Shown: piece after piece, positions 4 through 22,313 of the stretch
Numbering within the stretch: position 1 is the first letter of the stretch
How the letters are laid out: every line of letters starts with the position of its first letter
Source: an uncultured Methanosarcinales archaeon
GTDB taxonomy: Archaea > Nanobdellota > Nanobdellia > Woesearchaeales > DSVV01
Length of the DNA stretch: 64,000 nucleotides
Assembly: GCA_964556185.1 (NCBI GenBank)
Contig: CAZKVI010000001.1
Span: 7,165 to 71,164, forward strand
Reading direction: 5' to 3'
The notes under the pieces: generated by a model
Told to the model about the DNA's origin: nothing
The model's input: the letters and a program-made list of their open reading frames with translations, nothing else
Databases searched by the model: none
Made by a program: the position numbers and the translations under genes

Positions 4-3000
4 ATGATGGAGAACAATGCACCAGAGATAACTTTTTCAGGTGGACATTCATTAGATCGATATATTAGTTTAGTTGAAAGTGGTGTTTTGGAATTTGGTG
101 AACATTATACTAGTGTAAGTATTAATGGTATGGATTATAGAATATATTTCTTACAAAGCCAAGGTTATGATAATCAGATGTATATATCAGGATTTAGAAT
201 TTTCTTAAATATGGGTGAGATTGATTCAAGTGATGGAGAATTCTTTGAAACTTTAACATCTGTTACAGATTCTTTGTATATCCAAGTAGAAGATAGAGAA
301 GGAACAAAGATTGAGCCAGTAGTACTTGAGGAAGAAAGTGAAGCAAGTATTACAGATGTTGATGAAGCAGCACCATTAAGTTTAGAAACTGGAGAAGTTT
401 CTGTTGAATTACCAGTACAAGGACTTGTTGGTGCAGAACAACTTGGACCATTAGAAGAACCTGTTTTTGTAGATTATAGAGAAGCTCAAGAAATGACAGA
501 TCAAGCAAGTACTAATTTATTCTTACAATCTTTACCTTTATTAGAAGATGCAGTTGCAAGAGGTGATGATAATACGATATTAACAATATTAGAATCATTA
601 GCAAATATTGCTCCTAAAGTTGATCCAACTTTAATAAGTATGACAATTCCTTATTTAGTTGATGCGTTGGGGGTTGTTGAGGATGAAGTGACATTAAATT
701 CTGTTGCTTCTCTTATAGCAAATGTTGCAGAATATTCAACTACTCCAGAACTTCTTGAAGATTTAATTGTTCCATTAGTAAATGCATATGGCCTGGTTCA
801 TGATGGTGATAAACCATCAATAACTATGGCTCTTGCAGCTGTTGTTGTAGCAGTTGATAATCTTCCTATTCCTGAATTAGTAATAATAGATATATTAATT
901 GCTGATCTAAAACAAAATGAAAATGCACTAGTTATTTCTGCTCTTGGTAAAATTGGTGAATCAGCAATTGAACCATTAATTGAAGCTTTAAAAGAGACAA
1001 ATGGTGGCACATTTGCTCAAGATTTAGGTGAGATAGCAAAAACTACAAATTCAGAATTAATTCAACAATTGGTTGATTCATTAATTACTGATTTGAAAGA
1101 GACTAGTGATTATAATGAAGCAAAAAAACTTATTTCTATTCTTGGTAAAATAGCTGGACCAGCAATTGAACCAATGATCTCTTTATTAGGGCAAATGCCA
1201 GATGAGGTTTTAGAAGTTAAGCTTGCTCAAACTATTGGTAGGATTGGTGAACCAGCAATCGAACCTTTGCTTGCTGCATTAGGTGAAACAAATGATATTG
1301 ATGTAATCTCTGGAATTGGTTCTGCTTTAAGTAAAATAACTGGAACACTAATGGATGTAGAATTATTAGAACCAATGATTGAACCCTTGGCTACTGCTCT
1401 AGTAAAGGCAAATGAACAAAACAACGATGATGCTAGATATTCTATTGTTTCAACTTTAAATAAAATAGCAAAACAAGTCAATCCAGAATTATTAAGGCCA
1501 GCACTTGAACCAGTAGCAGATCTTTTGGAAACTTCAGGAGTAAAAGATGTTCGTCTGATGGCCATCGTATTCTTGAGAGAAGTAGCAGAACCAGCAATTC
1601 CTACTTTATATTCTAGATTAAAACAAGCAAGGGCTTCAGGAAATCTCGAATTACAAGAAAATATTATACTTTCTTTTACAGGTATGGAAGATTTTTCTTT
1701 AGTAGAATTAACTGACTTAATTAAAGCAGATAATGAACAAACCAAACAAGTTCTAGAACAACTTGAATCACAAGGTTATGAATTTAGACTTCAAGATTAT
1801 GGGATATTAACTTCTTATCCAGAAGTTTTATTAGGAATTCCTTTGGAAAGAGATGAGTTAATTGCTGCAATTAGAGAAATGATGCCAGCTGAGCATATAG
1901 AAAAAACAGTTCAACCTGGTTACGAATCACAGAATTTTGATGATTATGTTGGTGAAGGCTCTGTTAATCAATTAAGTATAGTAAGTTTAGCAAAACTATA
2001 TTTAATGTTAAATACACTAAGCAATCCATCATTTGTTGATCGAGTTGGTTTATTGATTATACAGGATTTCTTAAATACAGATACAGAAACAGGTGGAGTA
2101 GTTAGATTAGTTGATGGTTCTGTTGCTTTGGTTAATTTTGAGCCAAGTAAAAGGGGAAATTATAAGGTGTTTGCTTCTCCTACTGAAGTTAAAGTTTTAT
2201 CTTTTTATGAAGTAGGGGATTATCATCTACATGCTGGTACTGGAACAACCAAAGGTAATGCAGATCTTGCGGGACCAAGTGGATTTTTACATGGTTCAGA
2301 AGGTGATTTAGTAGTGGCTCATTTAGCTAAAAGAGATGGTGTTGTTATAACTCATTTAGGGGGAGAGCATGGAAGAAATTCATATAATGTTGTGTTTTAT
2401 ACTCCAACTGGTCAAGTTGTCGATCTTGGTGTTTATAGATGGAATGAAGAAAGTGTTCCTTGGTTGACTGCAGAGGAAGAAGTAGAAGTTAAAGCAGGTA
2501 TGGAAGAAAGAAGACAATTAGCAACACAAGTAGTACAGGCTGCATTGGGGGCCAGAGTTCAAGCAATGCAAGCTGCAGAGACTGATGTTGAAACTAATTT
2601 AGGAGAATTCTTAGAAGCTAATGGATTAGAAGATACTTGCAGTGATTGTATTTTATTAATTGGTCAAGTTAGACAATTAATTAAAGATGGTAAATTAGAT
2701 GAAGCAAGAGCTTTAATTGATAGAGAAATCAATGCACTTGTTCAAGGAGCTGGAAGTAGTTTTGTTGATATTGCTAATGCAGATTATGCAAGAGCAATTA
2801 CTGAATTAAATGGATTAATTTATCTAGTAGAAAGAGATGCATCTGCATCAATTGATTTATTGAGTAGTATTGGTCAACTAACTTATCAAATTGAATTAGT
2901 TCAAGCTAAACAAGAAAGATTGGCTGCTATTGAAGATGGTGATCTTATTGAACCTTGGGATTTTGTTGATGAAGTTTACGAAGATTCAGTAAGTAATTAT

Positions 3001-6000
3001 ATGGTTGAATTACAAGATTATTATATGTCTAAAGTTATGGTTGCTTTGGAAGGAATTATTCCTGCTGAATTTATTGAAATATCATTATCACATGGATTAA
3101 AACCACAAGATATAATTAGGTTCTTTTTAGATGATTATGTAACAGATGATAATTTAGATCAAATTTCTGTATTAGGGAATGCTTTAGAAGAATATGCAAT
3201 TGCTGCAGAAACAAATCCAGATTTATCAATGACTGCAGAAGAAGCAAGGGCATTAAAAGATTTTGTTTTAGCAGCTACATCCTTTTTTATTGAAGGAACA
3301 GTTAAAATAGGAGAAGATGAAACAGTTGTAGAAGGGCAACAACTATCTTTCTTGTCACGTTATGGACGAGCAGTTGCATCAGTTGCAGCAGGTGTATTAA
3401 CACTAGCAATTGCGAAACCTGTGTTTGCAGCGACTACAATTATTGCTAGTGGGACAGTCATGCCTGCACTTGGTATTGCAGGAGGAGCAATAGCTGCAAT
3501 TATTGGCGGTTATTTTGCATATACAAAAGTAATTAAGCCTTGGTGGTTGAGAAGGAACATAGATAGTCAACTAGAGGTGCTTGCGACTTCAGATGATCAA
3601 AATGAAATAGATACAGCAGTTCAAAACTTGGTAATAATAGGAGAGCCAGCAATAGAACCATTAATGACTTACATGGAAAAGTCATTTTTTAGGGATAAGA
3701 TATTTGCACAAGCTATTGTTGAAGTTTCTAATAATGTGGGGCCAGAAGTGATGGAAACTTTTATACCTCGTTTGATTGAAGATTCTCTTAAAATCTCTCC
3801 TGATGCAAGCTTTGAAATAGGTGAAGTCTTTTCTAAAATAGGAGAGCCAGCAATACAACTCTTGGTTGAGACATTAGAATCTGCAACACAAAGAAAAGAT
3901 TATTCTGCAAAAGAAAGAATAGTGAATACATTCTCTCAAATTGCTAAAACAAATGATCCGGCACTTTTATGGCCAGCAATAAAACCATTAATTGATTCTA
4001 TGCAGGCAGAACCATTCCTTCAAAATACTGGTACAAGAAATCTTCTTACAACTATTGGTGCACCTACCATGCCTTATTTAGTGGAAGCTTTAAGTTATAC
4101 AGAAGGAGATGTAAAAAAATATGTTATTATGACTATTAAATCTATTGCTGAAAAAGAAGATGTAACAGGAGAGGAATTAGAACAAGCAATTTTACCATTA
4201 GCTGAATCTTTTTCTACAGAAGATACTTGGACTACAGTTGAAGTTGAGTTAGGGCTAGAAATTAGTAAAGCACTTACAGAAATTGCTAAAAAGTCTGACA
4301 GCGAATTATTCTTGTATACAATTGCACCTTTGAGTAATGCTTTGCGAATAGGAGATTCTTTTTCAAAAGTAGAAGCAGCTCGTGCAGTTGCAGAGATTGC
4401 TAAAAAAGAAAATATTGATGGAAATTCATTAATGCCTACAGTTTATTCTTTGATGGATTCATTTGGTGGACTTAGAAAACATGAAGATAAGATTGTTGTA
4501 GCAGCAGCTATTGCAGAAGTTGCTAAAAAAGTAGATGGTGAATTATTTGTAGAAACAGTAGATTCGTTGGTTTACATGCTTGCAATAGATTTAAGAGTAC
4601 AGAATGATGAAAGAGAAATCATAAGCGATGCTCTTGCAGCAATAGGGGTGCCTGCAATTATACCTTTACTAAACTCATTGGGAGATAAAGAAGCACGTAG
4701 CACAGAAATCACTAACACAATTGCTAAGATGGGGGATTCTGCGATTCAACCAATAGTTGATTCATTGCCAGAGTTGAAATATGAACAATCAGTCTCTCGT
4801 GCTGCAGATATTCTTGCAGAATTTGGAGAAAAAGCGATTCCAGGTTTAGTTGAAGTATTACAAAAAGCAGAAGGACTTCAAATAAATAACATCCTTTGGT
4901 CTATTACTAAAATTGCTGGCAAAGAGGATGTTAGTAGAAGGGCATTAGAGCCACTAATACAACCACTAATAGATTTATTAATGGGTTCTTTTACTCCGGC
5001 ATTAGTTCATTCTACTTTTGGAGATATTGGACCATCAACAGTCCAACCTTTATTTGAAGCATTACAAGCAACAGAGGACCATGAAACAAAGCGCAAGATT
5101 CTTTTTTCTCTTTCATACGCTATTAAAAATGTAGATCCAGAGATTGCAGAGCCATTAATACAGCCAATGTTTGAAATTATGATGGAAGGCATCACAGGGG
5201 AAGGAGTTTCTAAGATTTCATCTGATGCAATGGAGGTCTTAATCAATATGGGAAAAACATCTGTTCCATTCTTATTACAAGAACTTGAAAAAACAAAACC
5301 TTGGTCAGAATTAGTAGAAGGCAGCAAAGAATGGATGGTCAAAAAGCAGATATCTGGTGCATTAATAAAGATAGCTCAAGAGATTATGGAATCTGACTTA
5401 GAATTTGTTATGGGAAGTATAATGGATATGTATGTTGAGCTTGCATTCGAAGTTGGTATGATTGCTGATGCATCAATCCAGTCAGAGATTATTAGAAGTG
5501 CCTCTAGTTTTATTTACATATTAAATAAGAATAATGCTTTGACAAGGATGGATCAAGATTACTTAAAACAAAAGATTATTGTTCCTTTTATTTCATTATT
5601 AAAAGAACAAGATACATTTATTGATCATGATGCATCATTTGTTTTGAAAATGCTTGGTTTACCAGCACTAGAAACCATACTTACTGATAAAGATATTAGT
5701 TTGGATGATAAAAAGAAAGCATTTAATTTGTTGAAAGATACTTTGCCTGCAGCAGATCAATTCTTTTATGAATTAATCTTTGAATTGGAATCAGAAGATC
5801 AAATAGGAATAGCTAGGAGAATTTATACAAAAGGCATAATGCCTACAAACTATCTTGTAGATAATTATGAAGAAGGTATTGAAGATGAATGGGAAGCAAC
5901 TTTAACTTCAATACAAACAAGAGAGACATCAATGGATTATGATAATCCATTACATGTTGCATTAATGTATACAGACTTTAGAGGAAAAATAGATTGTTGT

Positions 6001-9000
6001 TTCTCAAGACCAAGTAAGTATAATTATGAAACTTATCAAAGTATTATGCAAGACTTAGATGCTGATGCTGTACCAAGTTTATCAGGAGATCAAGAAGCAG
6101 AGTTAGTCTATGCTGGTTATGAAGCATATAGGGTTCATCAATATTTAGTAGAATTAAATGAAATGGCAAAACAAATGGGTAGGAAATTATTGGTTGTTCC
6201 AAATTATAGTTATGGAAGATTTATAATAGAACCTATTCAAAAAGATTTAGAACGTTTAGATAATATAATTATCCAACCAGCAAGAATTGGTTCAACAGAA
6301 GCACACTCAAATGATTATTTATTACATGCATCTAATACAAATAGGTTATTTGATGAAAATACAGAAAGAATGATTTTAGAAGAGCAACCTATTATTGTAA
6401 TGGTTGATGGAAGTAATAGTTATACTAGGGGAAGAGATGCTCGTTATCCAGATGCACAAAAAGGCTTTACTAATTGGGGTATTGTATTAAATGATGTTCT
6501 TGGTGTAGAACAAGGCGAAATGCAGAGGACAGATGATCATATAACTGGTTTAAGAGAAACATCAGCTTATGCAACATTAAGAACAAGAATGGAAGGTTAT
6601 GGTATTTCTGTAGAAGGTGCAGAACAATACAATGTGCATTATTGGAATCCAGCAGGAACTTCATTAGCTTTAACAAAAGGTAAGCATGCAACAAGAGTAG
6701 TGGAAACAAAAGTTCCTGTAACACAATCTTCTGAAATTGATGGTCCAGCAGTTGTAATAATTAATTCAGTGTTTAATGATGGTTATGATGATGTTAGTCT
6801 TCCTGCTGATGTAAAAGCAAAAGGAAATAACAAACAACATGAATCTGCTTATTATGATGATACACATCATATTCAAGATATATTATTCAAGAAAGGAAGC
6901 CATGGTATAGAAATACAAGATGAAATTTATGAAGCTATTAGGGACGAATTTACAGATTTTAAACATCAGAATTCTCCATTATATGTTGCAATAGAAGAAA
7001 CAGGAATCTTAACACATAAGCAAGCAACAGAAATGAGATTGCATAGATTACAACATTATTCTGTAGAGAGAGCTACAAGTAAATTATTAGGCAAGCTTTC
7101 AAGACGAGAAATTACTTTAAGTGCTGGTCAAATTGCAGATCTTATTGCAATAATACAAACTCAACAAATTTATGCAGATAGAGAAGTCAGTTCTTCAGAG
7201 GTTGCAAGAGATATTGCTGAGGAAGAAGTAAGAGAAGCAGCAGAGACTTATTTAAGAGATCCTGTTGTAATTGAATATGGAACTTCATGTAGAAGTGCTT
7301 GTGTAATTGGTGCAGAACTTGATGAAAGGGTTATAGGTGTTGAAGAAGGAAGACATGAAGATCTTGGTCCAGTTGTTGCATCAGATGGATATGGGTTATC
7401 AGTTGCTGCAGAGATTATTGATAACTTAGATGATCCTGCAAATGATGGTAATGAACAAGCATTAGTAGATTATGCATTTAGATTATTGGATCAGGTTGAT
7501 GGAGAAGCTCAAGAGGAAGCATTTGCAAGAGCTCAATTCTTGCAAGAAATAAAAGAATTAGAAGCAGAAGTTGCAGAAGAATCAGAAACATATGAAGATA
7601 CTGTTAGTAGTGATATGGTTGACTTACAAGAGTTCCATATATCTAAAGTTATGGTTGCATTGGAAGAGATTATTCCTGTTGAGGTTATTGATGAATTCTT
7701 TTCTCTTGATGTTTCTTTACAAGAGATATTTGATTATTATTTGAGTGCTTATGTGACAGAAGATAATCTTGATCAACTTATAGAATTAGAAGAATTAGAG
7801 TTTATTGGTAGATTGCGTGAAGCAATACTTGTTGATGATCTTGAACTGAGACTCGAGGATTCAACAGAAGTAAATATAATTGGTGCTGAACAAGAAATTT
7901 CAGAACTTGAAAGAACACTTGAGAGAGAGTTTTTTAGTTTTGATGGAATATCAGCAGAATTAGCAAGTAGAATTGTAGCTGTTGATCCTGAATTAACTCC
8001 ACGTGTAATAAGTGGAGAATACACTGATGTAGTTGAAGTAATTGATTCTAGTGTAAGACATACAATAAATGTTGATATAAGGGCAAGAGATAGAATACCT
8101 TTGTTTGTTATTGATAGATTAAGAGCAGGTAGGTCAATTAGTTTACATCAAGGAACTAGTGCAGAATCTATTGTACAATTAAGAAAAGAAGGATTTACAC
8201 AGTTTAACTCATTATCTCAATGGAGACCTAAGTTATGGGTAGCAACAAATGAAGACGGCGCTCTTACTTATTTCTTTGCAGATATTTATAGTGAAAGTAG
8301 ACTTAATGATGTCCAAGCATTGTTAAAACTTTTAGATGTTCCTTCGTCTAATGTTGATACATATGATTATGGACATGAGTATGTTGGAGAAATACGCGAA
8401 GCACTTGAAGGTATTCCTGATGAAAATAAACCAGATGTATTAATTATGGGAGATCAAACAGCTTTTATGCAAGGATATCTTAGAGATGGTTATATTGCAA
8501 GTACACTTGCAACTAATTTACAAGAATTGGTTCAAAGTCAATTAGCAGAAGGAAAACCAATTGTTGAAGCATTACAATCTTATTTTTCTGTAGAAGGTGA
8601 ATGGTTCGATAATTATTATAATGAAATTGTGTCAACTAATTCAATGAGAAATGTGTTAAGGGAACATTTTGTAGAAGTAGGAAGAGCACGTGAGTTAGGA
8701 AGTGTAATGGCGCAGATAAAAGAAAGAGGTTTTATTGATAGTGATTTCTTAGATGAACTTGATGTTCCAAGAGAAGCACAGGCAGAAATATTAAATGCTG
8801 AATATTATATTTCAAAAGATGGGTTTTATGAATCACAAATTCAGTCCTTAGTTAATGATTTGATTGATTTATTTGTTAGTAATCCAAATTATGATGCTTT
8901 ATTGGGTAGTAATCCAAAGGACTTGCTTAGGGATCGGGCTTTGGCAGCAGAATTTACAAAAGCATATGAAGAAGTAGTTAAAGTCTTGGATAAACATAAT

Positions 9001-9828
9001 CTGTTTCGTAGATTTAATACACTTCAAATGCCACAAACTTTTCTTGAAAAATATGAAACTCCTTTTATAGTTATGTATGGGTTTAAAATATTGACTTCAT
9101 CTGGAGAAGTTAAAAACATAATATTAACCCCTAATCCTTATGGGGATCTTGGAGGAGATGTAGTTGATGCAGCCTTGCAGTATAGTGAAGACCATGATTT
9201 AGAGGAAATATTGTTTATTGGTACAGGAGGAGCAATAGCATCCGAAGGTCTTGAAGTACATGATATATATTTTCCTGAATCTGTTGATGTGGAAATTGGC
9301 TACTTGAAAGTTCCAAATGCAATGGCGACAAGATATAAAAGAGGAGAATTACAAACAAAATATTCAGAAGTACATTTTACAAGACACGCTTCTATAGATA
9401 CTGTATTGGAAGAGACTTATCCATTTGTAGAAGCTTTACAAGAAGATGGAATAGAAACACTTGATGTTGAAATAAATACTATTGTTGCTAGTTATAGGCT
9501 TTATTTGGGTTTTGTTTCTCATGAGTTATCCAAATTTTTAACAGAACATCAATCTAAAGCAATAGATAATCATTTACAAAATGGAGAAAGTATTGATAGG
9601 ACTTTTTTAGAAGAACTTGGTATTTCTGAAAGAGAAGTACAAGATAGAGTTCTTTCTATTACGGATAAAGTTCCTAATTTGAGTATTGTTCAACATGTTT
9701 CTGATTTACCATTAGTTCCTGGTTTGACATTAGATGAATTAGGGTTTGGAACATCTCTTGGATTACAGAGAGATAAATATTCTAATTTAATACTTGAACA
9801 TCTTGATGTAGTAGCAGTTGAACCATAA
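4..9828 (+). CDS. Giant (3274 aa) HEAT/PBS-lyase-like repeat protein with a central transmembrane hairpin. It may be 5'-partial at the window edge. A possible C-terminal nucleoside-phosphorylase-like domain is noted.
   Basis: Single uninterrupted ORF. Many GEPAIEPL(I/L)EAL-type HEAT repeats occur in two blocks (about aa 190-620 and 1190-1740). Two hydrophobic helices lie around aa 1120-1185. An internal duplicated ~60-aa module (MVELQDYYMSKVMVALEGIIP / MVDLQEFHISKVMVALEEIIP) is present. The C-terminal ~250 aa contains FIGTGGA and a DVEINT motif reminiscent of the PNP/MTAN fold. Confidence 0.7.
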   Translation: MMENNAPEITFSGGHSLDRYISLVESGVLEFGEHYTSVSINGMDYRIYFLQSQGYDNQMYISGFRIFLNMGEIDSSDGEFFETLTSVTDSLYIQVEDREGTKIEPVVLEEESEASITDVDEAAPLSLETGEVSVELPVQGLVGAEQLGPLEEPVFVDYREAQEMTDQASTNLFLQSLPLLEDAVARGDDNTILTILESLANIAPKVDPTLISMTIPYLVDALGVVEDEVTLNSVASLIANVAEYSTTPELLEDLIVPLVNAYGLVHDGDKPSITMALAAVVVAVDNLPIPELVIIDILIADLKQNENALVISALGKIGESAIEPLIEALKETNGGTFAQDLGEIAKTTNSELIQQLVDSLITDLKETSDYNEAKKLISILGKIAGPAIEPMISLLGQMPDEVLEVKLAQTIGRIGEPAIEPLLAALGETNDIDVISGIGSALSKITGTLMDVELLEPMIEPLATALVKANEQNNDDARYSIVSTLNKIAKQVNPELLRPALEPVADLLETSGVKDVRLMAIVFLREVAEPAIPTLYSRLKQARASGNLELQENIILSFTGMEDFSLVELTDLIKADNEQTKQVLEQLESQGYEFRLQDYGILTSYPEVLLGIPLERDELIAAIREMMPAEHIEKTVQPGYESQNFDDYVGEGSVNQLSIVSLAKLYLMLNTLSNPSFVDRVGLLIIQDFLNTDTETGGVVRLVDGSVALVNFEPSKRGNYKVFASPTEVKVLSFYEVGDYHLHAGTGTTKGNADLAGPSGFLHGSEGDLVVAHLAKRDGVVITHLGGEHGRNSYNVVFYTPTGQVVDLGVYRWNEESVPWLTAEEEVEVKAGMEERRQLATQVVQAALGARVQAMQAAETDVETNLGEFLEANGLEDTCSDCILLIGQVRQLIKDGKLDEARALIDREINALVQGAGSSFVDIANADYARAITELNGLIYLVERDASASIDLLSSIGQLTYQIELVQAKQERLAAIEDGDLIEPWDFVDEVYEDSVSNYMVELQDYYMSKVMVALEGIIPAEFIEISLSHGLKPQDIIRFFLDDYVTDDNLDQISVLGNALEEYAIAAETNPDLSMTAEEARALKDFVLAATSFFIEGTVKIGEDETVVEGQQLSFLSRYGRAVASVAAGVLTLAIAKPVFAATTIIASGTVMPALGIAGGAIAAIIGGYFAYTKVIKPWWLRRNIDSQLEVLATSDDQNEIDTAVQNLVIIGEPAIEPLMTYMEKSFFRDKIFAQAIVEVSNNVGPEVMETFIPRLIEDSLKISPDASFEIGEVFSKIGEPAIQLLVETLESATQRKDYSAKERIVNTFSQIAKTNDPALLWPAIKPLIDSMQAEPFLQNTGTRNLLTTIGAPTMPYLVEALSYTEGDVKKYVIMTIKSIAEKEDVTGEELEQAILPLAESFSTEDTWTTVEVELGLEISKALTEIAKKSDSELFLYTIAPLSNALRIGDSFSKVEAARAVAEIAKKENIDGNSLMPTVYSLMDSFGGLRKHEDKIVVAAAIAEVAKKVDGELFVETVDSLVYMLAIDLRVQNDEREIISDALAAIGVPAIIPLLNSLGDKEARSTEITNTIAKMGDSAIQPIVDSLPELKYEQSVSRAADILAEFGEKAIPGLVEVLQKAEGLQINNILWSITKIAGKEDVSRRALEPLIQPLIDLLMGSFTPALVHSTFGDIGPSTVQPLFEALQATEDHETKRKILFSLSYAIKNVDPEIAEPLIQPMFEIMMEGITGEGVSKISSDAMEVLINMGKTSVPFLLQELEKTKPWSELVEGSKEWMVKKQISGALIKIAQEIMESDLEFVMGSIMDMYVELAFEVGMIADASIQSEIIRSASSFIYILNKNNALTRMDQDYLKQKIIVPFISLLKEQDTFIDHDASFVLKMLGLPALETILTDKDISLDDKKKAFNLLKDTLPAADQFFYELIFELESEDQIGIARRIYTKGIMPTNYLVDNYEEGIEDEWEATLTSIQTRETSMDYDNPLHVALMYTDFRGKIDCCFSRPSKYNYETYQSIMQDLDADAVPSLSGDQEAELVYAGYEAYRVHQYLVELNEMAKQMGRKLLVVPNYSYGRFIIEPIQKDLERLDNIIIQPARIGSTEAHSNDYLLHASNTNRLFDENTERMILEEQPIIVMVDGSNSYTRGRDARYPDAQKGFTNWGIVLNDVLGVEQGEMQRTDDHITGLRETSAYATLRTRMEGYGISVEGAEQYNVHYWNPAGTSLALTKGKHATRVVETKVPVTQSSEIDGPAVVIINSVFNDGYDDVSLPADVKAKGNNKQHESAYYDDTHHIQDILFKKGSHGIEIQDEIYEAIRDEFTDFKHQNSPLYVAIEETGILTHKQATEMRLHRLQHYSVERATSKLLGKLSRREITLSAGQIADLIAIIQTQQIYADREVSSSEVARDIAEEEVREAAETYLRDPVVIEYGTSCRSACVIGAELDERVIGVEEGRHEDLGPVVASDGYGLSVAAEIIDNLDDPANDGNEQALVDYAFRLLDQVDGEAQEEAFARAQFLQEIKELEAEVAEESETYEDTVSSDMVDLQEFHISKVMVALEEIIPVEVIDEFFSLDVSLQEIFDYYLSAYVTEDNLDQLIELEELEFIGRLREAILVDDLELRLEDSTEVNIIGAEQEISELERTLEREFFSFDGISAELASRIVAVDPELTPRVISGEYTDVVEVIDSSVRHTINVDIRARDRIPLFVIDRLRAGRSISLHQGTSAESIVQLRKEGFTQFNSLSQWRPKLWVATNEDGALTYFFADIYSESRLNDVQALLKLLDVPSSNVDTYDYGHEYVGEIREALEGIPDENKPDVLIMGDQTAFMQGYLRDGYIASTLATNLQELVQSQLAEGKPIVEALQSYFSVEGEWFDNYYNEIVSTNSMRNVLREHFVEVGRARELGSVMAQIKERGFIDSDFLDELDVPREAQAEILNAEYYISKDGFYESQIQSLVNDLIDLFVSNPNYDALLGSNPKDLLRDRALAAEFTKAYEEVVKVLDKHNLFRRFNTLQMPQTFLEKYETPFIVMYGFKILTSSGEVKNIILTPNPYGDLGGDVVDAALQYSEDHDLEEILFIGTGGAIASEGLEVHDIYFPESVDVEIGYLKVPNAMATRYKRGELQTKYSEVHFTRHASIDTVLEETYPFVEALQEDGIETLDVEINTIVASYRLYLGFVSHELSKFLTEHQSKAIDNHLQNGESIDRTFLEELGISEREVQDRVLSITDKVPNLSIVQHVSDLPLVPGLTLDELGFGTSLGLQRDKYSNLILEHLDVVAVEP

Positions 9829-10770
9829 TTAAGAAATAACTTCTATTTCTGCTGCATATTTTCTAACAGATGCCATAGTTCCTTTTGGTAATTGGATTCC
9901 AGTTCTTAATAAAAGGTCGAATTTTTGATGACCTTCACCCAATGTTCTATAATATTCAGATGCTGAAATATATCTTGCTAAATCATGTTTAGGGGGAATT
10001 ATTCTAACGAAATATTGGTGAGTTCCAGATTCATCTTGTTTTATTCCAATCCCTAATAAGTCTGGTGAATCAGATTGAAATGAACACCATTGAAGTACAA
10101 GAGAATCTAGTTGACCAGAACCAACACAATAAGTATCTGATGGTGGAAGTAAAGAATCCTCAGTGATCTTACTTCTAAAATATCTGCCTTCTAATTGAAT
10201 AACTTTATTGCTTTGCCAATAATCTTCAATAGAACCACCTTCCCACCATCCTTGTCTTTGTGGCTGGAGAATTGCTCCAGGTCTATGAAATGGAACAACT
10301 CCAGGATTTAACATATGTCCTTCTGATTCTCTTCCTCTAACTTCTACTAAATGATCTCCTCTAAATATTTCGATTGTTGGTAAATTAGTTTGTTCATAAG
10401 GAATTCCCTTATCTTCTAAATTTATTCTTGTAACTGCTCTTCTTATAGCAATGTCTTGTATGTGGGTAAGTTTTTCTTGGCCAACATCATAATCTAAGCC
10501 AGAATTTACATTATCAGGAGAAGTATCATAAACATCAGAAGCAGTAGAGACTAACCATTCTAATAGTTGTCTATCATTTTTTAAGAATTGATAATAAGAT
10601 TGTTCATATTGTCTTAGTGCTTCATTTCTTGATATTGCTTTTCCATCTAAGGTTTGGGCAATTCTTACAGAATTACCATAAAATCTTGAAAGAGAATCCA
10701 TAACTCTTTCATGTAATTTTCCAATATAACCTACTCTTGCAATTGTTGTCCAGTTTTCCTGTTCACTCAT
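9829..10770 (-). CDS. Hypothetical protein (313 aa), convergent with and abutting the giant gene.
   Basis: Long ORF with no recognisable motif. Its GC content is slightly elevated relative to its neighbours. Confidence 0.45.
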   Translation of the reverse strand: MSEQENWTTIARVGYIGKLHERVMDSLSRFYGNSVRIAQTLDGKAISRNEALRQYEQSYYQFLKNDRQLLEWLVSTASDVYDTSPDNVNSGLDYDVGQEKLTHIQDIAIRRAVTRINLEDKGIPYEQTNLPTIEIFRGDHLVEVRGRESEGHMLNPGVVPFHRPGAILQPQRQGWWEGGSIEDYWQSNKVIQLEGRYFRSKITEDSLLPPSDTYCVGSGQLDSLVLQWCSFQSDSPDLLGIGIKQDESGTHQYFVRIIPPKHDLARYISASEYYRTLGEGHQKFDLLLRTGIQLPKGTMASVRKYAAEIEVIS

Positions 10771-11089: not shown

Positions 11090-12052
11090 TTATTGGTAAG
11101 TTATTGGAGCAGAAATTGTTCTCATAAACATTTCTTTTATTTGTGCTTGGTCTGCTTCATAAACAACCTTTACATTTTCACCATCTGAAAATCTGGTTTT
11201 ACTTCCTAATACTGTGACATCAACATTCCTTCTTACAATTTTTCCTAGATCTGGATTCACAACTAAAGCTAGTGTTAGAGGATCATGCATACAAGTAAAA
11301 TATACATCTGTTTCAAATACACCATCTCTATAATCAAACCAAACATCAGCCATTGAACAAACAGCTTGATTAACTTGATCAACCCCTCTTAATGTTTCTA
11401 ATTCTTTTCTATAAAGTCTACATTGTGTTGTTACATCTAATGGAACCATTGTCATTGGTATACCAGATCTCAGAACTTTTTTTGCAGCTAGTGTGTCAGT
11501 GTAAACATTATGTTCTTGTCTTGTTCTTCTATGATTTGGTCTTTCTAAATTTAATTGTTCTGGGTAAGAAATAGATCCAGCCATCATATAAAGATGTTTA
11601 ATTCTTTCTCTAATTCTTGGTTCTTTTTGTAATGCTCTTGCAATATTTGTTAAGCCACCAAGTGTAACTATATTATATTCTCCAGGATGTTCCATTATTT
11701 CTTGAACTAAGAAATCAACTGCTCCTGTTTGAATTCCTAGTTCTCTTATATCAGCTCTTGTTTCTTCAGAAGTTAGAATTCCTTCACCTTCTCTACCTGT
11801 TGTTGCAATTCTTCTATATCCAGATCCAAATAGAAATGGTTTTGCTTCACCAGTATAAACAGGAATATCTTGTCCAGCAAGATCTACTAATTTCTTAGCT
11901 ATTTTAGCTCTAAGGTCAACATTTCCATAGACAGTGGTTATGGCTGCAATATCTAAATTAGGATGTTTTAAGGCAAATAATAATGCAAATGCATCATCAA
12001 TATCTAGTCCTATTTCAGTATCTATAATTACTCTATTTTCCTTAGTCCCCAT
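11090..12052 (-). CDS. Inosine-uridine preferring nucleoside hydrolase family protein.
   Basis: N-terminal DTEIGLDIDDAFAL motif, which is the DxDxxxDD Ca-binding signature of IU-nucleoside hydrolases. Size is about 320 aa. Confidence 0.75.
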   Translation of the reverse strand: MGTKENRVIIDTEIGLDIDDAFALLFALKHPNLDIAAITTVYGNVDLRAKIAKKLVDLAGQDIPVYTGEAKPFLFGSGYRRIATTGREGEGILTSEETRADIRELGIQTGAVDFLVQEIMEHPGEYNIVTLGGLTNIARALQKEPRIRERIKHLYMMAGSISYPEQLNLERPNHRRTRQEHNVYTDTLAAKKVLRSGIPMTMVPLDVTTQCRLYRKELETLRGVDQVNQAVCSMADVWFDYRDGVFETDVYFTCMHDPLTLALVVNPDLGKIVRRNVDVTVLGSKTRFSDGENVKVVYEADQAQIKEMFMRTISAPITYQ

Positions 12053-14207: not shown

Positions 14208-14966
14208 TTGATGGGAAATGATAGAACTGAAGTTGATGAGGGTAATATTTTTGGTATTTCTAGAGAATCTGAGCTATGTGATACTCCAATTCCAGACTCT
14301 TTAGTACTTCGAGATGTGAATGAGCCTGAAAACACTTTAGAAATGGTATTATCTGCTTCAGGAAGTGAGGATGGTGATGAAGTATCTATTGGAGGAGACA
14401 ATGGTGCAGGTAGACCATTAGAATTACAAGTAGGAGATGAAGATTCAGGAACTACTTATTCTAGTTACAATGTGTTATTTCTTTCTCATTGGATTCCTAA
14501 ATATATAGAAGGCCATAGATACACAGTTGTTGATCCATCAGGAGCTGAAATTAGATTGAATGTCACATTATTTCCTGCTTATAAAGGCAACAATGATGAT
14601 TTAATTGCAGCACAGAAAAATAGACCGTATGATTTACTTATTTCAACAACTTCTAAAGGAGAAGTTAATGATGAAGAAGAGAAAGGAACGATTACACAAA
14701 TAGCAAGAACACCAGGAAAAAAAACAAGAACACCAATAGTTCATAAGGGTGGACAAGTTTATCTTATAGTGGACCAAGATGTTTATGAAATAGCAGATGA
14801 ATTAGATGATACATCTGTGCGAAGTTCTCAACATGGTGAATTGTTATTGCCAAGAGCCACTATTCCAGGATCTTCAGATATAACATTAAATCTATTAGAA
14901 ATAATTTTAGATAATGTGCTTGGCTATCATCAAGAATATATAAATATATTACCTTCTACAGAGTAA
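14208..14966 (+). CDS. Hypothetical acidic protein (252 aa).
   Basis: ORF only. GC content is higher than the surrounding sequence. Confidence 0.35.
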   Translation: MMGNDRTEVDEGNIFGISRESELCDTPIPDSLVLRDVNEPENTLEMVLSASGSEDGDEVSIGGDNGAGRPLELQVGDEDSGTTYSSYNVLFLSHWIPKYIEGHRYTVVDPSGAEIRLNVTLFPAYKGNNDDLIAAQKNRPYDLLISTTSKGEVNDEEEKGTITQIARTPGKKTRTPIVHKGGQVYLIVDQDVYEIADELDDTSVRSSQHGELLLPRATIPGSSDITLNLLEIILDNVLGYHQEYINILPSTE

Positions 14967-18959: not shown

Positions 18960-19358
18960 ATGGTTATAGAAACACTTAAATATTACAATTGCATCTCCAT
19001 TTTTATGGGAAAAAGTGTGATTGCGGCTATGGATGATATTCTATTTTCTTCAAGGATAGATAGTACTGCAAAATTCAACAAAATTAATGTAGATTTTGTC
19101 AAGTCTAGGGACGACTTATTTGAAAAAGCAAGAATGAATAATGCTAGTTTGATTTTATTGGATTTGGATTTTAAAGAATTCGGACCAATGCGAACAATTT
19201 CTCAATTAAAAAAAGATGCTGTTCTAAGAAATGCAACAGTGATTGGTTATCTAGAAGAACATAACACAGAAACAAAAGCAGAAGCAGTTGGCGCAGGAGT
19301 CGATGCAGTTATGCTGAAAGAAGAACTAGATGGCAAATTAAGTAAGATTTTGAGTTAG
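18960..19358 (+). CDS. Stand-alone CheY-like receiver-domain protein. The true start is probably the internal Met near 19008.
   Basis: AAMDDIL acidic pocket, LILLDLDF phospho-Asp region and a conserved K in AVMLKEEL. Confidence 0.5.
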   Translation: MVIETLKYYNCISIFMGKSVIAAMDDILFSSRIDSTAKFNKINVDFVKSRDDLFEKARMNNASLILLDLDFKEFGPMRTISQLKKDAVLRNATVIGYLEEHNTETKAEAVGAGVDAVMLKEELDGKLSKILS

Positions 19359-21275: not shown

Positions 21276-22313
21276 ATGGGTGCAATGGGATATATGGCAA
21301 AAGCAGTACAAAGTAGGCCTTTACAGATGTTAGCTTTAGCTTCTACCTTAATTATAGCATCAGCCGCATATTCTCGGGATGCGAATGCTCTTGAAGGACC
21401 AAGTACATCATATAATACTATTCAGGTAATAAAGTATTCACCTGGTCAAGCAGTTGAAAAAGGTTCTGATTCAGTTTCTGATGATGGACTCGCAATTCAA
21501 GGAGGAGGTAGTGGTGTTGGTTCTCAATCTGGTTCTGGATCGTATGGCAGGCAAGAAAGTGCTGATAGGGCTGAGCCAGTTACTGATACTTATTTAGCTC
21601 AACATGTTTATGGAGATGATGTTGCAGAACCTTCTGAGGTTTATCTTGAAGAACTTGCACAAACAAGCACACCAGTTGATACTTATGTTCCTGATAATCA
21701 ATGTAGAACTGATGATTCTTTGGATTCTTTGCTTGCAGGTGTTAAGACAGATGAAAAAGTTGAAATGACAACTGAAGAAAAATATATATTAGGTGGTGTT
21801 GCAATTTTTGCTATTTTATTCCTTGGAGCGTTTGGAACTTTTGCTTATTTTGATTCAAGAAAAGAAGAACAAAAATCAAGAAGAAGTTCAAGACAAGATA
21901 GATATACTACTTCACCAGCACTTCGAGATGAAAAAAGAAGAAAAAGAGAAGAAGATGAAGAACCTTCTGAACCAAAAGAACCATCAATATTGGAAAGAGA
22001 TATATTTGAGATGTTATCTTCAGCATATTCAAGTTGGTTTGGTGGTAAAGAAAGTTCAACTGAAACATCTGATTCAACATCTGGTGCTTCACAACCAGAT
22101 ACAAGTACAACTTATGTTGATCCGGAACCTGAACCAGCTCCTGATTATAGGGGTTTAAAAAGAGATCGTGGAGCAAGAGGTATCTGGTCTCGTTTTGCAA
22201 CACCCACATCTGAACAACAACCTACTGCAACTGTTGATCCTGAAGTTGCTGCAAGAAGAGAAAAAGAAAGAAAAAAGAAAAAAAGAAGACGAAAAAGGAA
22301 AAAAGGTTACTAA
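21276..22313 (+). CDS. Secreted single-pass membrane protein with a Gly/Ser-rich ectodomain and a K/R/E-rich cytoplasmic tail.
   Basis: Signal-like N-terminus, TM (YILGGVAIFAILFLGAFGTFAYF), C-terminal KERKKKKRRRKRKKGY. Confidence 0.4.
   Translation: MGAMGYMAKAVQSRPLQMLALASTLIIASAAYSRDANALEGPSTSYNTIQVIKYSPGQAVEKGSDSVSDDGLAIQGGGSGVGSQSGSGSYGRQESADRAEPVTDTYLAQHVYGDDVAEPSEVYLEELAQTSTPVDTYVPDNQCRTDDSLDSLLAGVKTDEKVEMTTEEKYILGGVAIFAILFLGAFGTFAYFDSRKEEQKSRRSSRQDRYTTSPALRDEKRRKREEDEEPSEPKEPSILERDIFEMLSSAYSSWFGGKESSTETSDSTSGASQPDTSTTYVDPEPEPAPDYRGLKRDRGARGIWSRFATPTSEQQPTATVDPEVAARREKERKKKKRRRKRKKGY

What the first reader, a model, noticed from the sequence alone, without database searches (positions are those of the whole stretch)
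4..9828. 3274-aa HEAT-repeat giant membrane protein with a possible C-terminal nucleoside-phosphorylase-like module and an internal segmental duplication
Contents of the single ~9.8-kb ORF:
- two large arrays of PBS-lyase/HEAT repeats (GEPAIEPL...);
- a central two-helix membrane hairpin (around nt 3350-3560);
- a C-terminal ~250 aa containing FIGTGGA...VEINT motifs reminiscent of the PNP/MTAN fold.

A ~60-aa module is duplicated within the protein at nt ~2990-3200 and ~7610-7800, with roughly 80% nucleotide identity.

Giant proteins of this type are characteristic of small-genome symbiotic archaea, and their functions are unknown. An IU-nucleoside hydrolase gene lies 1.3 kb downstream, hinting at a nucleoside-scavenging context.
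Basis: partly seen in the sequence, partly recalled or inferred. Interest (0 to 1): 0.6.

Follow-up and report, generated by a model that had tools for sequence, protein, structure and literature searches.

The report
Giant archaeal multi-enzyme membrane protein
The 9.8-kb reading frame is real, but it is only the last 58% of a membrane protein of at least 5,660 residues from a tiny symbiotic-type (Woesearchaeota/DPANN) archaeon, which strings HEAT-repeat scaffolds together with enzyme-like modules and ends in a genuine nucleoside-phosphorylase/MTAN-fold domain paired with a conserved neighbouring gene.

Summary
The ORF at 4..9828 is real. It is cut by the window edge: the same DNA on public contigs continues upstream to a gene of at least 5,662 codons whose frame is still open at the contig end.

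- two HEAT arrays
- the two-helix membrane hairpin (nt 3370-3522)
- the internal 65-aa duplication (74% nt, 54% aa identity)
- a DPANN origin

Not supported: the size, a functional link to the IU-nucleoside hydrolase, and misassembly.

New findings:
- The upstream part carries Fic, PHP and Metallophos/FBPase-like modules.
- aa 2040-2340 is an unmodelled PRTase-like domain shared with Omnitrophota giant HEAT proteins.
- The last 650 aa is a portable cassette (unknown domX, helical linker, nucleosidase).
- In 5 of 5 giant-gene loci this cassette has a conserved ~300-aa gene downstream on the opposite strand (ORF 9829-10770).
- A close relative swaps the cassette exactly at the duplicated module.

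Best reading: an Archaeovorin-like, modular host-interaction protein with a hydrolytic N-ribosidase cassette. Architecture is well supported; substrate and role are inferred.

The parts
4..9828 (+). C-terminal 3274 codons plus stop of a giant gene of at least 5,662 codons. The 5' part lies outside the window.
4..483 (+). Small beta-rich region (aa 1-160) that follows the third membrane segment cluster of the full protein. No family match.
   Evidence: no Pfam hit; sequence context.
481..1683 (+). HEAT / PBS-lyase-like repeat array 1 (aa ~160-560).
   Evidence: HEAT_2 39.1 bits, HEAT_PBS 26.3 bits; internal repeats.
1681..2973 (+). Unassigned region (aa 560-990). It contains an HxH...S..D motif at aa 740-775 that resembles JAB/MPN by eye, followed by a helical stretch.
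   Evidence: No Pfam hit, no PDB hit, no homologues in the word-index search.
2977..3165 (+). Copy 1 of the duplicated ~65-aa helical module (aa 990-1054).
3370..3522 (+). Two-helix membrane hairpin (aa 1123-1173).
   Evidence: Hydropathy.
3526..5313 (+). HEAT-like repeat array 2 (aa ~1175-1770).
   Evidence: Similarity to array 1; GEPAIxxL motifs.
5311..6123 (+). Unassigned helical region (aa 1770-2040).
   Evidence: nothing significant.
6121..7023 (+). 'dom230' (aa 2040-2340): a phosphoribosyltransferase-like domain with no Pfam or NCBIfam model. About 100 relatives were found, many in Omnitrophota giant HEAT proteins.
7021..7584 (+). Helical linker (aa 2340-2527), shared only with the close relative P0002.
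7591..7779 (+). Copy 2 of the duplicated module (aa 2528-2592). The 82%-identical relative P0002 diverges into an unrelated C-terminus at its start.
7993..8499 (+). domX (aa 2664-2832): a conserved alpha/beta domain of unknown fold class that always precedes the nucleosidase domain in this family.
   Evidence: No PDB or Pfam match.
8500..9045 (+). Helical linker of the cassette (aa 2833-3014).
   Evidence: secondary structure of the model.
9046..9825 (+). NP-I (PNP/MTAN/UP) fold nucleosidase-like domain (aa 3015-3274). Family-invariant residues are E3137, E3156 (in DVE) and D3234 (in VSD). A ~65-aa helical insertion lies between E3156 and D3234.
9829..10770 (-). Conserved partner gene (313 aa, no family model), convergent and abutting the giant gene's stop. 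Homologues (40-45% identity by tblastn) lie downstream on the opposite strand in all four other loci that encode a giant protein with this cassette.

Best explanation
The feature is the C-terminal 58% of one very long gene (at least 5,684 open codons, 5' end still unknown) of a Woesearchaeota-type DPANN archaeon. The product is a multi-pass membrane, modular 'scaffold plus enzymes' protein, built on the same plan as the Archaeovorin giant proteins of Omnitrophota.

Layout:
- HEAT-repeat arrays and helical linkers separate enzyme-like modules.
- Membrane segments occur at four places; the one inside the window is a two-helix hairpin.
- Modules outside the window: Fic, PHP phosphoesterase, Metallophos/FBPase-like.
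- Modules inside the window: a PRTase-like domain and a terminal cassette of domX, helical linker and an NP-I (PNP/MTAN) fold domain.

The cassette is portable. It occurs in other DPANN giant proteins with unrelated N-termini, and in shorter form as stand-alone ~600-aa proteins. A close relative carries a different C-terminus from the duplicated 65-aa module onward.

Most likely chemistry of the cassette: cleavage of an N-ribosidic bond of a nucleoside or nucleotide. This would be by hydrolysis rather than phosphorolysis, because the acidic catalytic motifs are kept while the phosphate-binding arginine of PNPs is never present. It probably acts together with, or under control of, the conserved ~300-aa protein encoded convergently downstream.

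Most likely biological role: interaction with a host or neighbouring cell, either harvesting or depleting nucleotide/ribosyl compounds at the membrane.

Shown: gene extent, domain architecture, folds, cassette portability, partner-gene linkage.
Inferred: catalytic activity, hydrolase versus phosphorylase, topology, substrate, host-directed role.
For: Gene extent and reality:
- establish the extent.
- Identical sequence appears in independent JGI and ENA assemblies.
- GC (0.33) and GC3 (0.13) match the housekeeping genes.

Organism:
- Archaeal TrpRS, class I LysRS, TrmB and a thermosome are present.
- The nearest TrpRS sequences are from Woesearchaeota/Nanoarchaeota MAGs.

Modules:
- HEAT.
- Fic, PHP, Metallophos and FBPase_2 above Pfam cutoffs in the N-terminal part.
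- Four clusters of hydrophobic segments.

PRTase-like domain:
- Model pLDDT 87.6.
- Relatives sit in Omnitrophota HEAT giants.

NP-I fold:
- Model pLDDT 90.1, pTM 0.84.
- Foldseek top 50 hits are all MTAN/PNP/UP, best E 3e-7.
- The family profile hits DeoD-type PNP at E 1.2e-6, AMP nucleosidase at 6e-4 and MTAN at 1e-3, with the VGTxG, VExE and SD motifs aligned.
- Relatives P0119, P0124 and P0128 pass PF01048 at the aligned place.
- E3137, E3156 and D3234 are invariant or nearly so in 18 family members.
- The position of the phosphate-binding Arg is F/Y/L/V/Q in all 18.

Portability:
- P0003, P0004, P0006 and P0007 share only the cassette.
- P0002 diverges at aa 2529.

Partner gene:
- Present in 5 of 5 giant loci with the cassette.
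- Present in 0 of 80 TrpRS-anchored related loci.

Archaeovorin description: bioRxiv 10.1101/2023.11.21.568195.
Against: - No activity, substrate or localisation has been measured.
- The window sequence itself gives no PF01048 hit, even at E<=10, so the domain is very divergent.
- domX and several long regions remain unassigned.
- The N-terminus is missing, so a signal or secretion domain and the overall topology cannot be read.
- Fic and PRTase-type chemistry need ATP or PRPP. That fits a cytoplasmic location, or delivery into another cell, better than an exposed surface.
- No synteny with other Woesearchaeota was found near TrpRS, so conservation of the whole protein is unknown.
- Only about five cassette-bearing giants were found among 1.84 billion representatives.
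Confidence: 0.55

Rival explanations
1. Conflict effector. The C-terminal cassette is an exchangeable toxin that depletes nucleotides, like the PNP-domain ATP nucleosidases Cap17 and DtcC. The giant protein delivers or presents it to a host or competitor. The convergent 313-aa gene encodes its inhibitor, immunity protein or regulator.
For: - The cassette is swapped in a close relative at a defined joint, and the same cassette sits on unrelated giant proteins.
- A tightly linked partner gene is present in 5 of 5 loci.
- PNP domains are proven ATP-cleaving effectors that are toxic when expressed alone (10.1101/2023.01.24.525353).
- Fic, another classic toxin domain, is on the same polypeptide.
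- Bacterial relatives of the cassette are fused to NTP_transf_2/MdcG nucleotidyltransferases.
Against: - No PADLOC defence or effector model hits the cassette or its relatives' PNP part.
- The partner is large (300 aa) and as conserved as the cassette (40-45% by tblastn, 41-48% in the alignment, against 31-42%). It is on the opposite strand, and in two loci it is not adjacent. This is unlike typical immunity genes.
- Full-length partner homologues occur in bacteria without any cassette nearby.
- In P0003 and P0006 the cassette is internal, not terminal.
Confidence: 0.2
2. Nucleoside or base scavenging for the archaeon's own metabolism. The PNP-like module and the nearby IU-nucleoside hydrolase together salvage bases and ribose from external nucleosides.
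For: - An NP-I fold domain is present, and an IU_nuc_hydro gene lies 1.26 kb away.
- The giant protein also carries a PRTase-like module, a fold used in base salvage.
- DPANN archaea commonly depend on salvage (general knowledge).
Against: - IU-NH is on the opposite strand, separated by another gene. It is absent from the other four cassette loci and from 80 related TrpRS neighbourhoods.
- The window encodes GARS (purD) and SHMT, so at least part of de novo purine synthesis is present.
- Housekeeping salvage enzymes are small soluble oligomers, not the termini of 5,700-aa membrane proteins.
- The PRTase-like domain lacks the canonical PRPP loop (sequence).
Confidence: 0.1
3. Envelope-glycan assembly or remodelling machine. 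The PRTase-like domain is a CriT-type PRPP-dependent ribofuranosyltransferase, the phosphoesterase modules trim the product, and the HEAT arrays hold the polymer, as in multi-enzyme capsule polymerases.
For: - In relatives, dom230 is followed directly by a HAD phosphatase motif in 15 of 37 copies that have downstream sequence. This mirrors the CriT-CrpP pair of Bcs3 (PMC10299916).
- Archaeovorins are rich in glycosyltransferases.
Against: - This protein has no HAD motif I anywhere.
- No glycosyltransferase family was detected in it.
- This model does not explain the nucleosidase cassette, Fic, or the partner gene.
Confidence: 0.1
4. Artefact: a chimeric or collapsed assembly of repeats, or a non-coding open frame.
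For: - The gene contains HEAT repeats and a 190-nt internal duplication.
- All public contigs break near the same upstream point.
Against: - Contigs from different samples and assemblers are 100% identical over 15-21 kb, including both repeat copies.
- The two copies are only 74% identical, so they cannot collapse.
- A 3,274-codon open frame in 33% GC DNA cannot arise by chance.
- Four separate domains have detectable homologues or confident folds.
Confidence: 0.02

Closest known systems
Archaeovorin-type giant proteins of Omnitrophota (West-Roberts et al., bioRxiv 10.1101/2023.11.21.568195)
   Same: - One very long ORF in an ultra-small, host-dependent prokaryote.
- HEAT repeats as the commonest domain.
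- Interspersed transmembrane segments.
- A string of unrelated enzyme domains, including FBPase-like ones.
- The dom230 PRTase-like domain of the window protein has direct homologues inside Omnitrophota HEAT giants.
   Different: - The host is archaeal (Woesearchaeota-type), not Omnitrophota.
- At least 5.7 kaa, against the 10-85 kaa discussed there.
- No glycosyltransferase, TPR or lytic transglycosylase domains were detected.
- The enzyme set centres on nucleotide and phospho-ribosyl chemistry.
- It ends in a nucleosidase cassette with a dedicated partner gene.
NP-I superfamily: MTA/SAH nucleosidase (MTAN), hexameric PNP (DeoD), uridine phosphorylase, AMP nucleosidase
   Same: - The glycine-rich 'xGTxGG' strand-loop is aligned.
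- The acidic [DE]-V-E motif corresponds to E-M-E of MTAN/PNP.
- The S-D motif corresponds to the catalytic Asp.
   Different: - About 10-15% sequence identity, and no PF01048 hit on the window sequence.
- No phosphate-binding Arg.
- A ~65-aa helical insertion before the SD motif.
- Always preceded by domX and a ~180-aa helical linker.
- Part of a giant membrane protein rather than a small soluble oligomer.
Cap17 / Detocs DtcC PNP-domain ATP nucleosidases (Rousset et al., 10.1101/2023.01.24.525353)
   Same: A PNP-fold domain used as a C-terminal module fused to non-metabolic domains. That work sets the precedent that such domains cleave ATP/dATP rather than nucleosides and act as effectors.
   Different: - No PADLOC model matched the cassette.
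- No sensor domains (SAVED, response regulator, NLR) and no defence-gene neighbourhood.
- Phylogenetic placement relative to the Cap17 clade was not tested.
CriT-CrpP module of the Hib capsule polymerase Bcs3 (PMC10299916) and the T. composti ribofuranosyl transferase (7shg)
   Same: dom230 has a PRTase-like fold, and these are its top structural matches. In many relatives dom230 is followed by a HAD phosphatase, like CriT followed by CrpP.
   Different: - A non-canonical PRPP loop ('VMVDGSNS').
- The window protein has no HAD domain.
- No polymerase (TagF-like) domain.
SPEARE giant proteins of Nanohaloarchaeota (Hamm et al. 2019; from my own knowledge, not examined here)
   Same: Multi-thousand-residue, multi-domain proteins of DPANN archaea proposed to mediate host interaction.
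   Different: SPEARE proteins are described with protease, adhesion and restriction-endonuclease domains. None of these was found here, and no sequence comparison was made.

Membership tests
NP-I / PNP_UDP_1 (PF01048) superfamily | Three-layer alpha/beta/alpha NP-I fold | tested here: met
   [not shown]
NP-I / PNP_UDP_1 (PF01048) superfamily | Sequence passes the Pfam PF01048 gathering score | tested here: not met
   No hit on the window sequence even at E<=10. Relatives aligned to the same region pass: P0119 45.9 bits, P0124 41.4, P0128 38.8. The family profile hits DeoD at E 1.2e-6.
NP-I / PNP_UDP_1 (PF01048) superfamily | Conserved acidic active-site residues (ribose-binding Glu of E-M-E; catalytic Asp of S-D) | tested here: met
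   E3156 (DVE) is invariant and D3234 (VSD) is at least 90% conserved in 18 family members. Both align to VEME and SD of DeoD.
Nucleoside phosphorylases proper (DeoD/UP type) | Phosphate-binding Arg two residues before the G of the 'RxGS/T' strand | tested here: not met
   This position is F3071 in the window protein and F/Y/L/V/Q in all 18 members. That resembles hydrolytic MTAN. The role of this Arg comes from my own knowledge of PNP structures.
NP-I / PNP_UDP_1 (PF01048) superfamily | N-glycosidic bond cleavage activity | not testable with these tools
   Needs an enzyme assay.
Cap17/DtcC-type immune ATP nucleosidases | Match to defence-system effector models, or a defence-gene neighbourhood | tested here: not met
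   There are no PADLOC hits for the cassette or its stand-alone relatives. The neighbours are housekeeping genes. I did not verify that PADLOC v2 contains Cap17/DtcC models.
HEAT / PBS-lyase HEAT-like repeat proteins | Pfam HEAT_2 / HEAT_PBS above gathering score, in tandem arrays | tested here: met
   HEAT_2 scores 39.1 bits (cutoff 27.7) and HEAT_PBS 26.3 bits (cutoff 20.9). Two arrays are related to each other.
Archaeovorin-type giant proteins | Single giant ORF with HEAT repeats, TM segments and many unrelated enzyme domains | tested here: met
   A homologous domain is shared with Omnitrophota giants.
Archaeovorin-type giant proteins | Encoded by Omnitrophota; >10,000 aa ('large') or >=30,000 aa ('giant') in the authors' terms | tested here: not met
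   The genome context is archaeal. The known length is at least 5,684 codons, with the 5' end missing.
Type I phosphoribosyltransferases / CriT-like ribofuranosyltransferases | PRTase core fold | tested here: inconclusive
   [not shown]
Type I phosphoribosyltransferases / CriT-like ribofuranosyltransferases | Canonical PRPP-binding loop (hydrophobic x4, two acidic residues, then T/S-G-x-T) | tested here: not met
   The sequence is 'IIVMVDGSNSYTRG' and the family consensus is 'VVDGT', with one acidic residue and no TGxT.
Polymorphic toxin / effector systems | Variable C-terminal module on a conserved body | tested here: met
   P0002 is 82% identical up to aa 2529 and unrelated afterwards. The cassette is shared by otherwise unrelated giants.
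Polymorphic toxin / effector systems | Small immunity gene immediately downstream on the same strand | tested here: not met
   The linked gene is 300 aa, well conserved and on the opposite strand.
Polymorphic toxin / effector systems | N-terminal secretion or trafficking domain | not testable with these tools
   The N-terminus is missing from all available contigs.
ADP-ribosyltransferase fold (considered for domX) | Detectable similarity to ART families (H-Y-E or R-S-E) | tested here: not met
   [not shown]

The most novel reading that the evidence does not exclude
DPANN archaea carry a previously undescribed two-gene module. One part is an exchangeable 'domX + helical linker + hydrolytic NP-I nucleosidase' cassette at the end of giant membrane proteins. 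The other is a dedicated ~300-aa partner protein, whose N-terminal 190-aa domain is itself an unmodelled, widespread family fused elsewhere to NMNAT-like, NUDIX and PTH2 enzymes.

Together they would form a host-directed system that cleaves nucleotides or NAD-type compounds. The ~65-aa insertion found only in the giant-protein version of the nucleosidase would be the docking site for the partner. The giant protein would then be an archaeal counterpart of Omnitrophota Archaeovorins, built from at least three domain families that no database yet models.
Probability: 0.3. Interest if true: 0.75.

Novelty: new variant of a known kind. Interest (0 to 1): 0.6.

Why it matters
How DPANN archaea with tiny genomes attach to and exploit their hosts is largely unknown, and their giant proteins are almost entirely unannotated. 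This locus supplies concrete, testable parts:
- a confidently folded nucleosidase cassette with identifiable catalytic residues
- a genetically linked partner protein
- a PRTase-like domain family shared between archaeal and Omnitrophota giants

The shared domain suggests that two unrelated lineages of ultra-small cells build their giant proteins from a common pool of modules.

Each part is small enough to express and assay. That turns 'giant protein of unknown function' into specific experiments. Three or four domain families could also be added to Pfam or NCBIfam.

Tried and rejected
Searches that gave nothing:
- A whole-protein search of the 5.8-billion protein index timed out.
- Searches with the C-terminal 685 aa and with aa 560-1120 returned nothing, not even the protein itself. 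The word index seems unable to retrieve this giant protein. The exhaustive representative search was what worked.
- A genome-contig scan with the last 1200 aa found no relative.
- A metagenome-contig scan with the first 499 aa found no relative.
- Pfam and NCBIfam on the window protein and on eight sub-segments gave only HEAT.
- PADLOC gave nothing.
- PDB searches of aa 650-910 and aa 1770-2075 gave nothing.
- The window contains no tRNA or Rfam features.

Ideas tested and not supported:
- Synteny. None of 80 Woesearchaeota-type loci around TrpRS contains a homologue of the giant gene, ORF313 or IU-NH.
- A JAB/MPN-like motif at aa 740-775. No profile support.
- A partner gene next to the stand-alone domX-PNP proteins or in bacterial ORF313 loci. 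None found.
- The 108.9-kb contig listed for the partner protein was not returned by the contig look-up, so the 5' end of the giant gene could not be reached.
Full report

The window holds one uninterrupted frame from nt 4 to the stop at 9826-9828, 3274 codons. The three bases before the ATG are GAT, not a stop.

An exact-sequence look-up of the neighbouring IU-nucleoside hydrolase found the same locus on a 33.4-kb JGI contig and a 23.2-kb ENA scaffold. There the gene is called at 5,662 and 5,663 residues. The exhaustive search of 1.84 billion representatives returned that product as P0001. The window protein is identical to P0001 residues 2389-5662, with 0 mismatches.

On the JGI contig the frame is still open in the 22 codons between the contig end and the called GTG start. 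The ENA gene call also runs to its contig end. The real protein is therefore at least about 5,684 residues, and its N-terminus is unknown. The '3274-aa protein' is an effect of the window edge.

The sequence is not a misassembly:
- Contigs from different samples are 100% identical to the window over 15-21 kb, including both copies of the internal repeat.
- The two copies are only 74% identical.
- GC (0.33) and GC3 (0.13) match the surrounding housekeeping genes.

**2.

- *HEAT arrays.* Pfam HEAT_2 (39.1 bits) and HEAT_PBS (26.3 bits) pass their cutoffs in aa ~300-440. Chunked self-BLAST shows array 1 (aa ~160-560) and array 2 (aa ~1175-1770) are related to each other, with E down to 2e-10. GEPAIEPL-type motifs occur in both.
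- *Membrane hairpin.* Two hydrophobic stretches lie at aa 1123-1173, nt 3370-3522.
- *Duplication.* nt 2977-3165 matches nt 7591-7779 at 74% over 190 nt, E 2.5e-27. aa 990-1054 matches aa 2528-2592 at 54%, E 3e-17.
- *IU-nucleoside hydrolase.* It lies at 11090-12052 on the minus strand (Pfam E 2e-58).

**3. The organism**

The window encodes archaeal-type TrpRS, class I LysRS, TrmB, a thermosome, GARS and SHMT. The TrpRS is 62-80% identical to those of MAGs mostly labelled Woesearchaeota, Nanoarchaeota or Pacearchaeota.

None of those 80 loci has a homologue of the giant gene within 10 kb of TrpRS. None has the IU-NH or the 313-aa ORF either.

**4. The C-terminal PNP-like module**

Pfam gives no PF01048 hit on the window sequence, even at E<=10. 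Three independent lines nevertheless confirm the fold.

- *Transitive homology.* Window aa ~3031-3167 match P0090, P0118-P0120, P0124, P0128 and P0129. Several of these pass PF01048 at exactly the aligned place: 45.9, 41.4 and 38.8 bits.
- *Family profile against the PDB.* A profile of an 18-member alignment (A1) finds DeoD-type PNP at E 1.2e-6, AMP nucleosidase at 6e-4 and MTAN at 1.2e-3. The VGTxG, V-E-x-E and S-D motifs are in register.

E3137 and E3156 (in 'DVE') are invariant and D3234 (in 'VSD') is at least 90% conserved in the family.

The residue aligned to the phosphate-binding Arg of hexameric PNPs is F3071. It is never Arg in any of the 18 members. From what is known of MTAN versus PNP, this points to hydrolysis rather than phosphorolysis. 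That is an inference, not a test.

The giant-protein subfamily has a ~65-aa helical insertion between E3156 and D3234.

**5. What else is in the protein**

*Upstream of the window*:
- Fic at P0001 371-414
- PHP at 607-661
- Metallophos at 1415-1600, overlapping an FBPase_2 hit at 1564-1775
- all four above Pfam cutoffs

Further hydrophobic segments lie at ~910, ~1313 and ~2287.

*Inside the window, aa 2040-2340 ('dom230')* has about 100 relatives among the representatives but no Pfam or NCBIfam model.
- Its AlphaFold model is confident: pLDDT 87.6, pTM 0.86.
- Named relatives are HEAT-repeat giants of Candidatus Omnitrophota.
- In 15 of the 37 copies with enough downstream sequence, the domain is followed directly by a HAD motif I. 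This recalls the CriT-CrpP pair of the Hib capsule polymerase (PMC10299916).
- The window protein has no HAD motif.

*Still unassigned:* aa 1-160, 560-990, 1770-2040 and 2340-2620.

**6. The C-terminal 650 aa is a cassette**

P0003, P0004 (a Nanoarchaeota protein), P0006 and P0007 are 1.6-4.2 kaa. They share only window aa ~2620-3272 with this protein, at 31-42% identity.

The same two domains, domX and the nucleosidase, also occur elsewhere:
- with a much shorter linker in stand-alone ~600-aa proteins, for example an Altiarchaeales hypothetical protein
- in ~1,000-1,300-aa (probably bacterial) proteins with NTP_transf_2/MdcG domains

P0002 is 82% identical to window aa 2123-2529. It becomes unrelated exactly where the second copy of the duplicated 65-aa module begins. 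The C-terminus has therefore been exchanged between close relatives at that joint.

domX (aa 2664-2832) is well predicted but matched nothing in the PDB or Pfam. My idea that it is an ADP-ribosyltransferase fold rests only on motifs seen by eye and found no support.

**7. A linked gene**

The 313-aa ORF at 9829-10770 on the minus strand abuts the giant gene's stop. It has no family match.

Homologues (40-45% identity by tblastn; 41-48% in the three-way alignment) lie downstream on the opposite strand in all four other loci that encode a cassette-bearing giant. Two are immediately adjacent, and two follow after one or two intervening genes. That is 5 of 5 loci, against 0 of 80 TrpRS-anchored related loci.

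A profile search found 215 relatives.
- Most cover only the N-terminal ~190 aa.
- That region exists as a stand-alone ~180-aa protein in Woesearchaeota, CPR bacteria and Asgard archaea.
- It is fused to PTH2, cytidylyltransferase-like (NMNAT-type), NUDIX or MBL-fold domains.

Full-length homologues in an Elusimicrobiota MAG are not next to a cassette.

**8. Interpretation**

The architecture matches the published description of Omnitrophota 'Archaeovorins': HEAT as the commonest domain, membrane segments, and many unrelated enzyme domains including FBPase-like ones. At least one domain family is shared between the two. I therefore read this as an archaeal variant of that kind of protein.

Its recognisable modules all act on nucleotides or phospho-ribosyl compounds in their characterised relatives. 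Its terminal cassette most likely cleaves an N-ribosidic bond hydrolytically, together with or controlled by the partner protein.

Whether it harvests nucleotides for the archaeon or depletes them in another cell cannot be decided here. PNP-domain ATP nucleosidases such as Cap17 and DtcC set a precedent for depletion, but PADLOC models did not match.

The nucleoside-scavenging link to IU-NH is weak. That gene is convergent, non-adjacent and not conserved with the cassette.

**9. Novelty and score**

Giant HEAT-rich proteins are known, and the NP-I fold is textbook. The following appear undescribed, and none has a Pfam or NCBIfam model:
- the archaeal host
- the nucleotide-centred module set
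- the portable domX-nucleosidase cassette
- its linked partner gene
- the PRTase-like family shared with Omnitrophota giants

I rate this a new variant of a known kind, interest 0.6.

Noticed in passing
window 9829-10770 (-); L088 15803-16696 (-); L089 12784-13698 (-); L090 15179-16048 (-); L091 6059-7039 (-): A ~300-aa ORF with no family model lies downstream on the opposite strand in all 5 loci that encode a giant protein with the domX-nucleosidase cassette (40-45% identity by tblastn; 41-48% in the three-way alignment). It is absent from 80 related TrpRS-anchored loci.
   Followed up: yes
window 10200-10770 (-), the N-terminal ~190 aa of the 313-aa ORF; relatives P0142-P0253: The N-terminal ~190 aa of the partner protein is a widespread unmodelled domain, with 215 hits. 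It occurs as stand-alone ~180-aa proteins in Woesearchaeota, CPR and Asgard archaea. It is also fused to PTH2, cytidylyltransferase-like (NMNAT-type), NUDIX and MBL-fold domains, which hints at nucleotide or NAD-related chemistry.
   Followed up: partly
window 6121-7023 (+) and relatives P0009, P0010, P0017, P0022, P0026 and others: The PRTase-like 'dom230' has no Pfam or NCBIfam model. In Omnitrophota giant proteins it is followed directly by a HAD-IIB phosphatase in 15 of 37 informative copies, like the CriT-CrpP pair of capsule polymerase Bcs3. The window protein lacks the HAD part.
   Followed up: partly
window 7585-7779 (+) versus P0002 residues 405-977: A relative that is 82% identical over aa 2123-2529 switches to an unrelated 570-aa C-terminus exactly at the start of the second copy of the duplicated 65-aa module. 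The module may mark a recombination joint.
   Followed up: partly
window 2221-2330 (+), aa 740-775: 'YHLHAGTGTTKGNADLAGPSGFLHGSEGDL' resembles a JAB/MPN HxH...S..D metal site by eye. There was no Pfam, PDB or homologue support.
   Followed up: partly
L085 1-130 (upstream of the window; JGI contig Ga0118720_1001621): Both longer public contigs (JGI and ENA) end within ~70 nt of each other inside the giant gene. This suggests a shared assembly break, from a repeat or strain variation, just upstream. The called GTG start is probably not the real start.
   Followed up: partly
window 42056-44083 (+): One ORF fuses an amino-acid permease (AA_permease_2, E 6e-43) to a C-terminal class I SAM methyltransferase domain. 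This is an unusual combination.
   Followed up: no
window 34040-37199 (+): Two adjacent, slightly overlapping sensor histidine kinases (HAMP-PAS-HisKA-HATPase and PAS-GAF-HisKA-HATPase), plus a response-regulator-like ORF near 18960. This is a lot of two-component signalling for a DPANN-type genome.
   Followed up: no
window 32118-33896 (-), 60391-62520 (+), 21276-22313 (+), 14208-14966 (+): Several sizeable ORFs (592, 709, 345 and 252 aa) have no Pfam match. Surface-type proteins with PKD and Big_13 domains lie at 39198-41261 and 51269-53383.
   Followed up: no
loci L005, L007, L012 and others: Many GTDB records whose TrpRS is 70-80% identical to this Woesearchaeota-type gene are titled 'uncultured Methanosarcinales archaeon'. 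One is titled Acidobacteriota and one Omnitrophota. These are probably mislabelled or contaminated MAGs.
   Followed up: no
L087 3109-5711 (next to the stand-alone domX-nucleosidase protein P0090): The stand-alone cassette homologue P0090 has a DHH/DHHA1 phosphoesterase and two HD-domain proteins nearby. This may be a nucleotide-signalling context.
   Followed up: no
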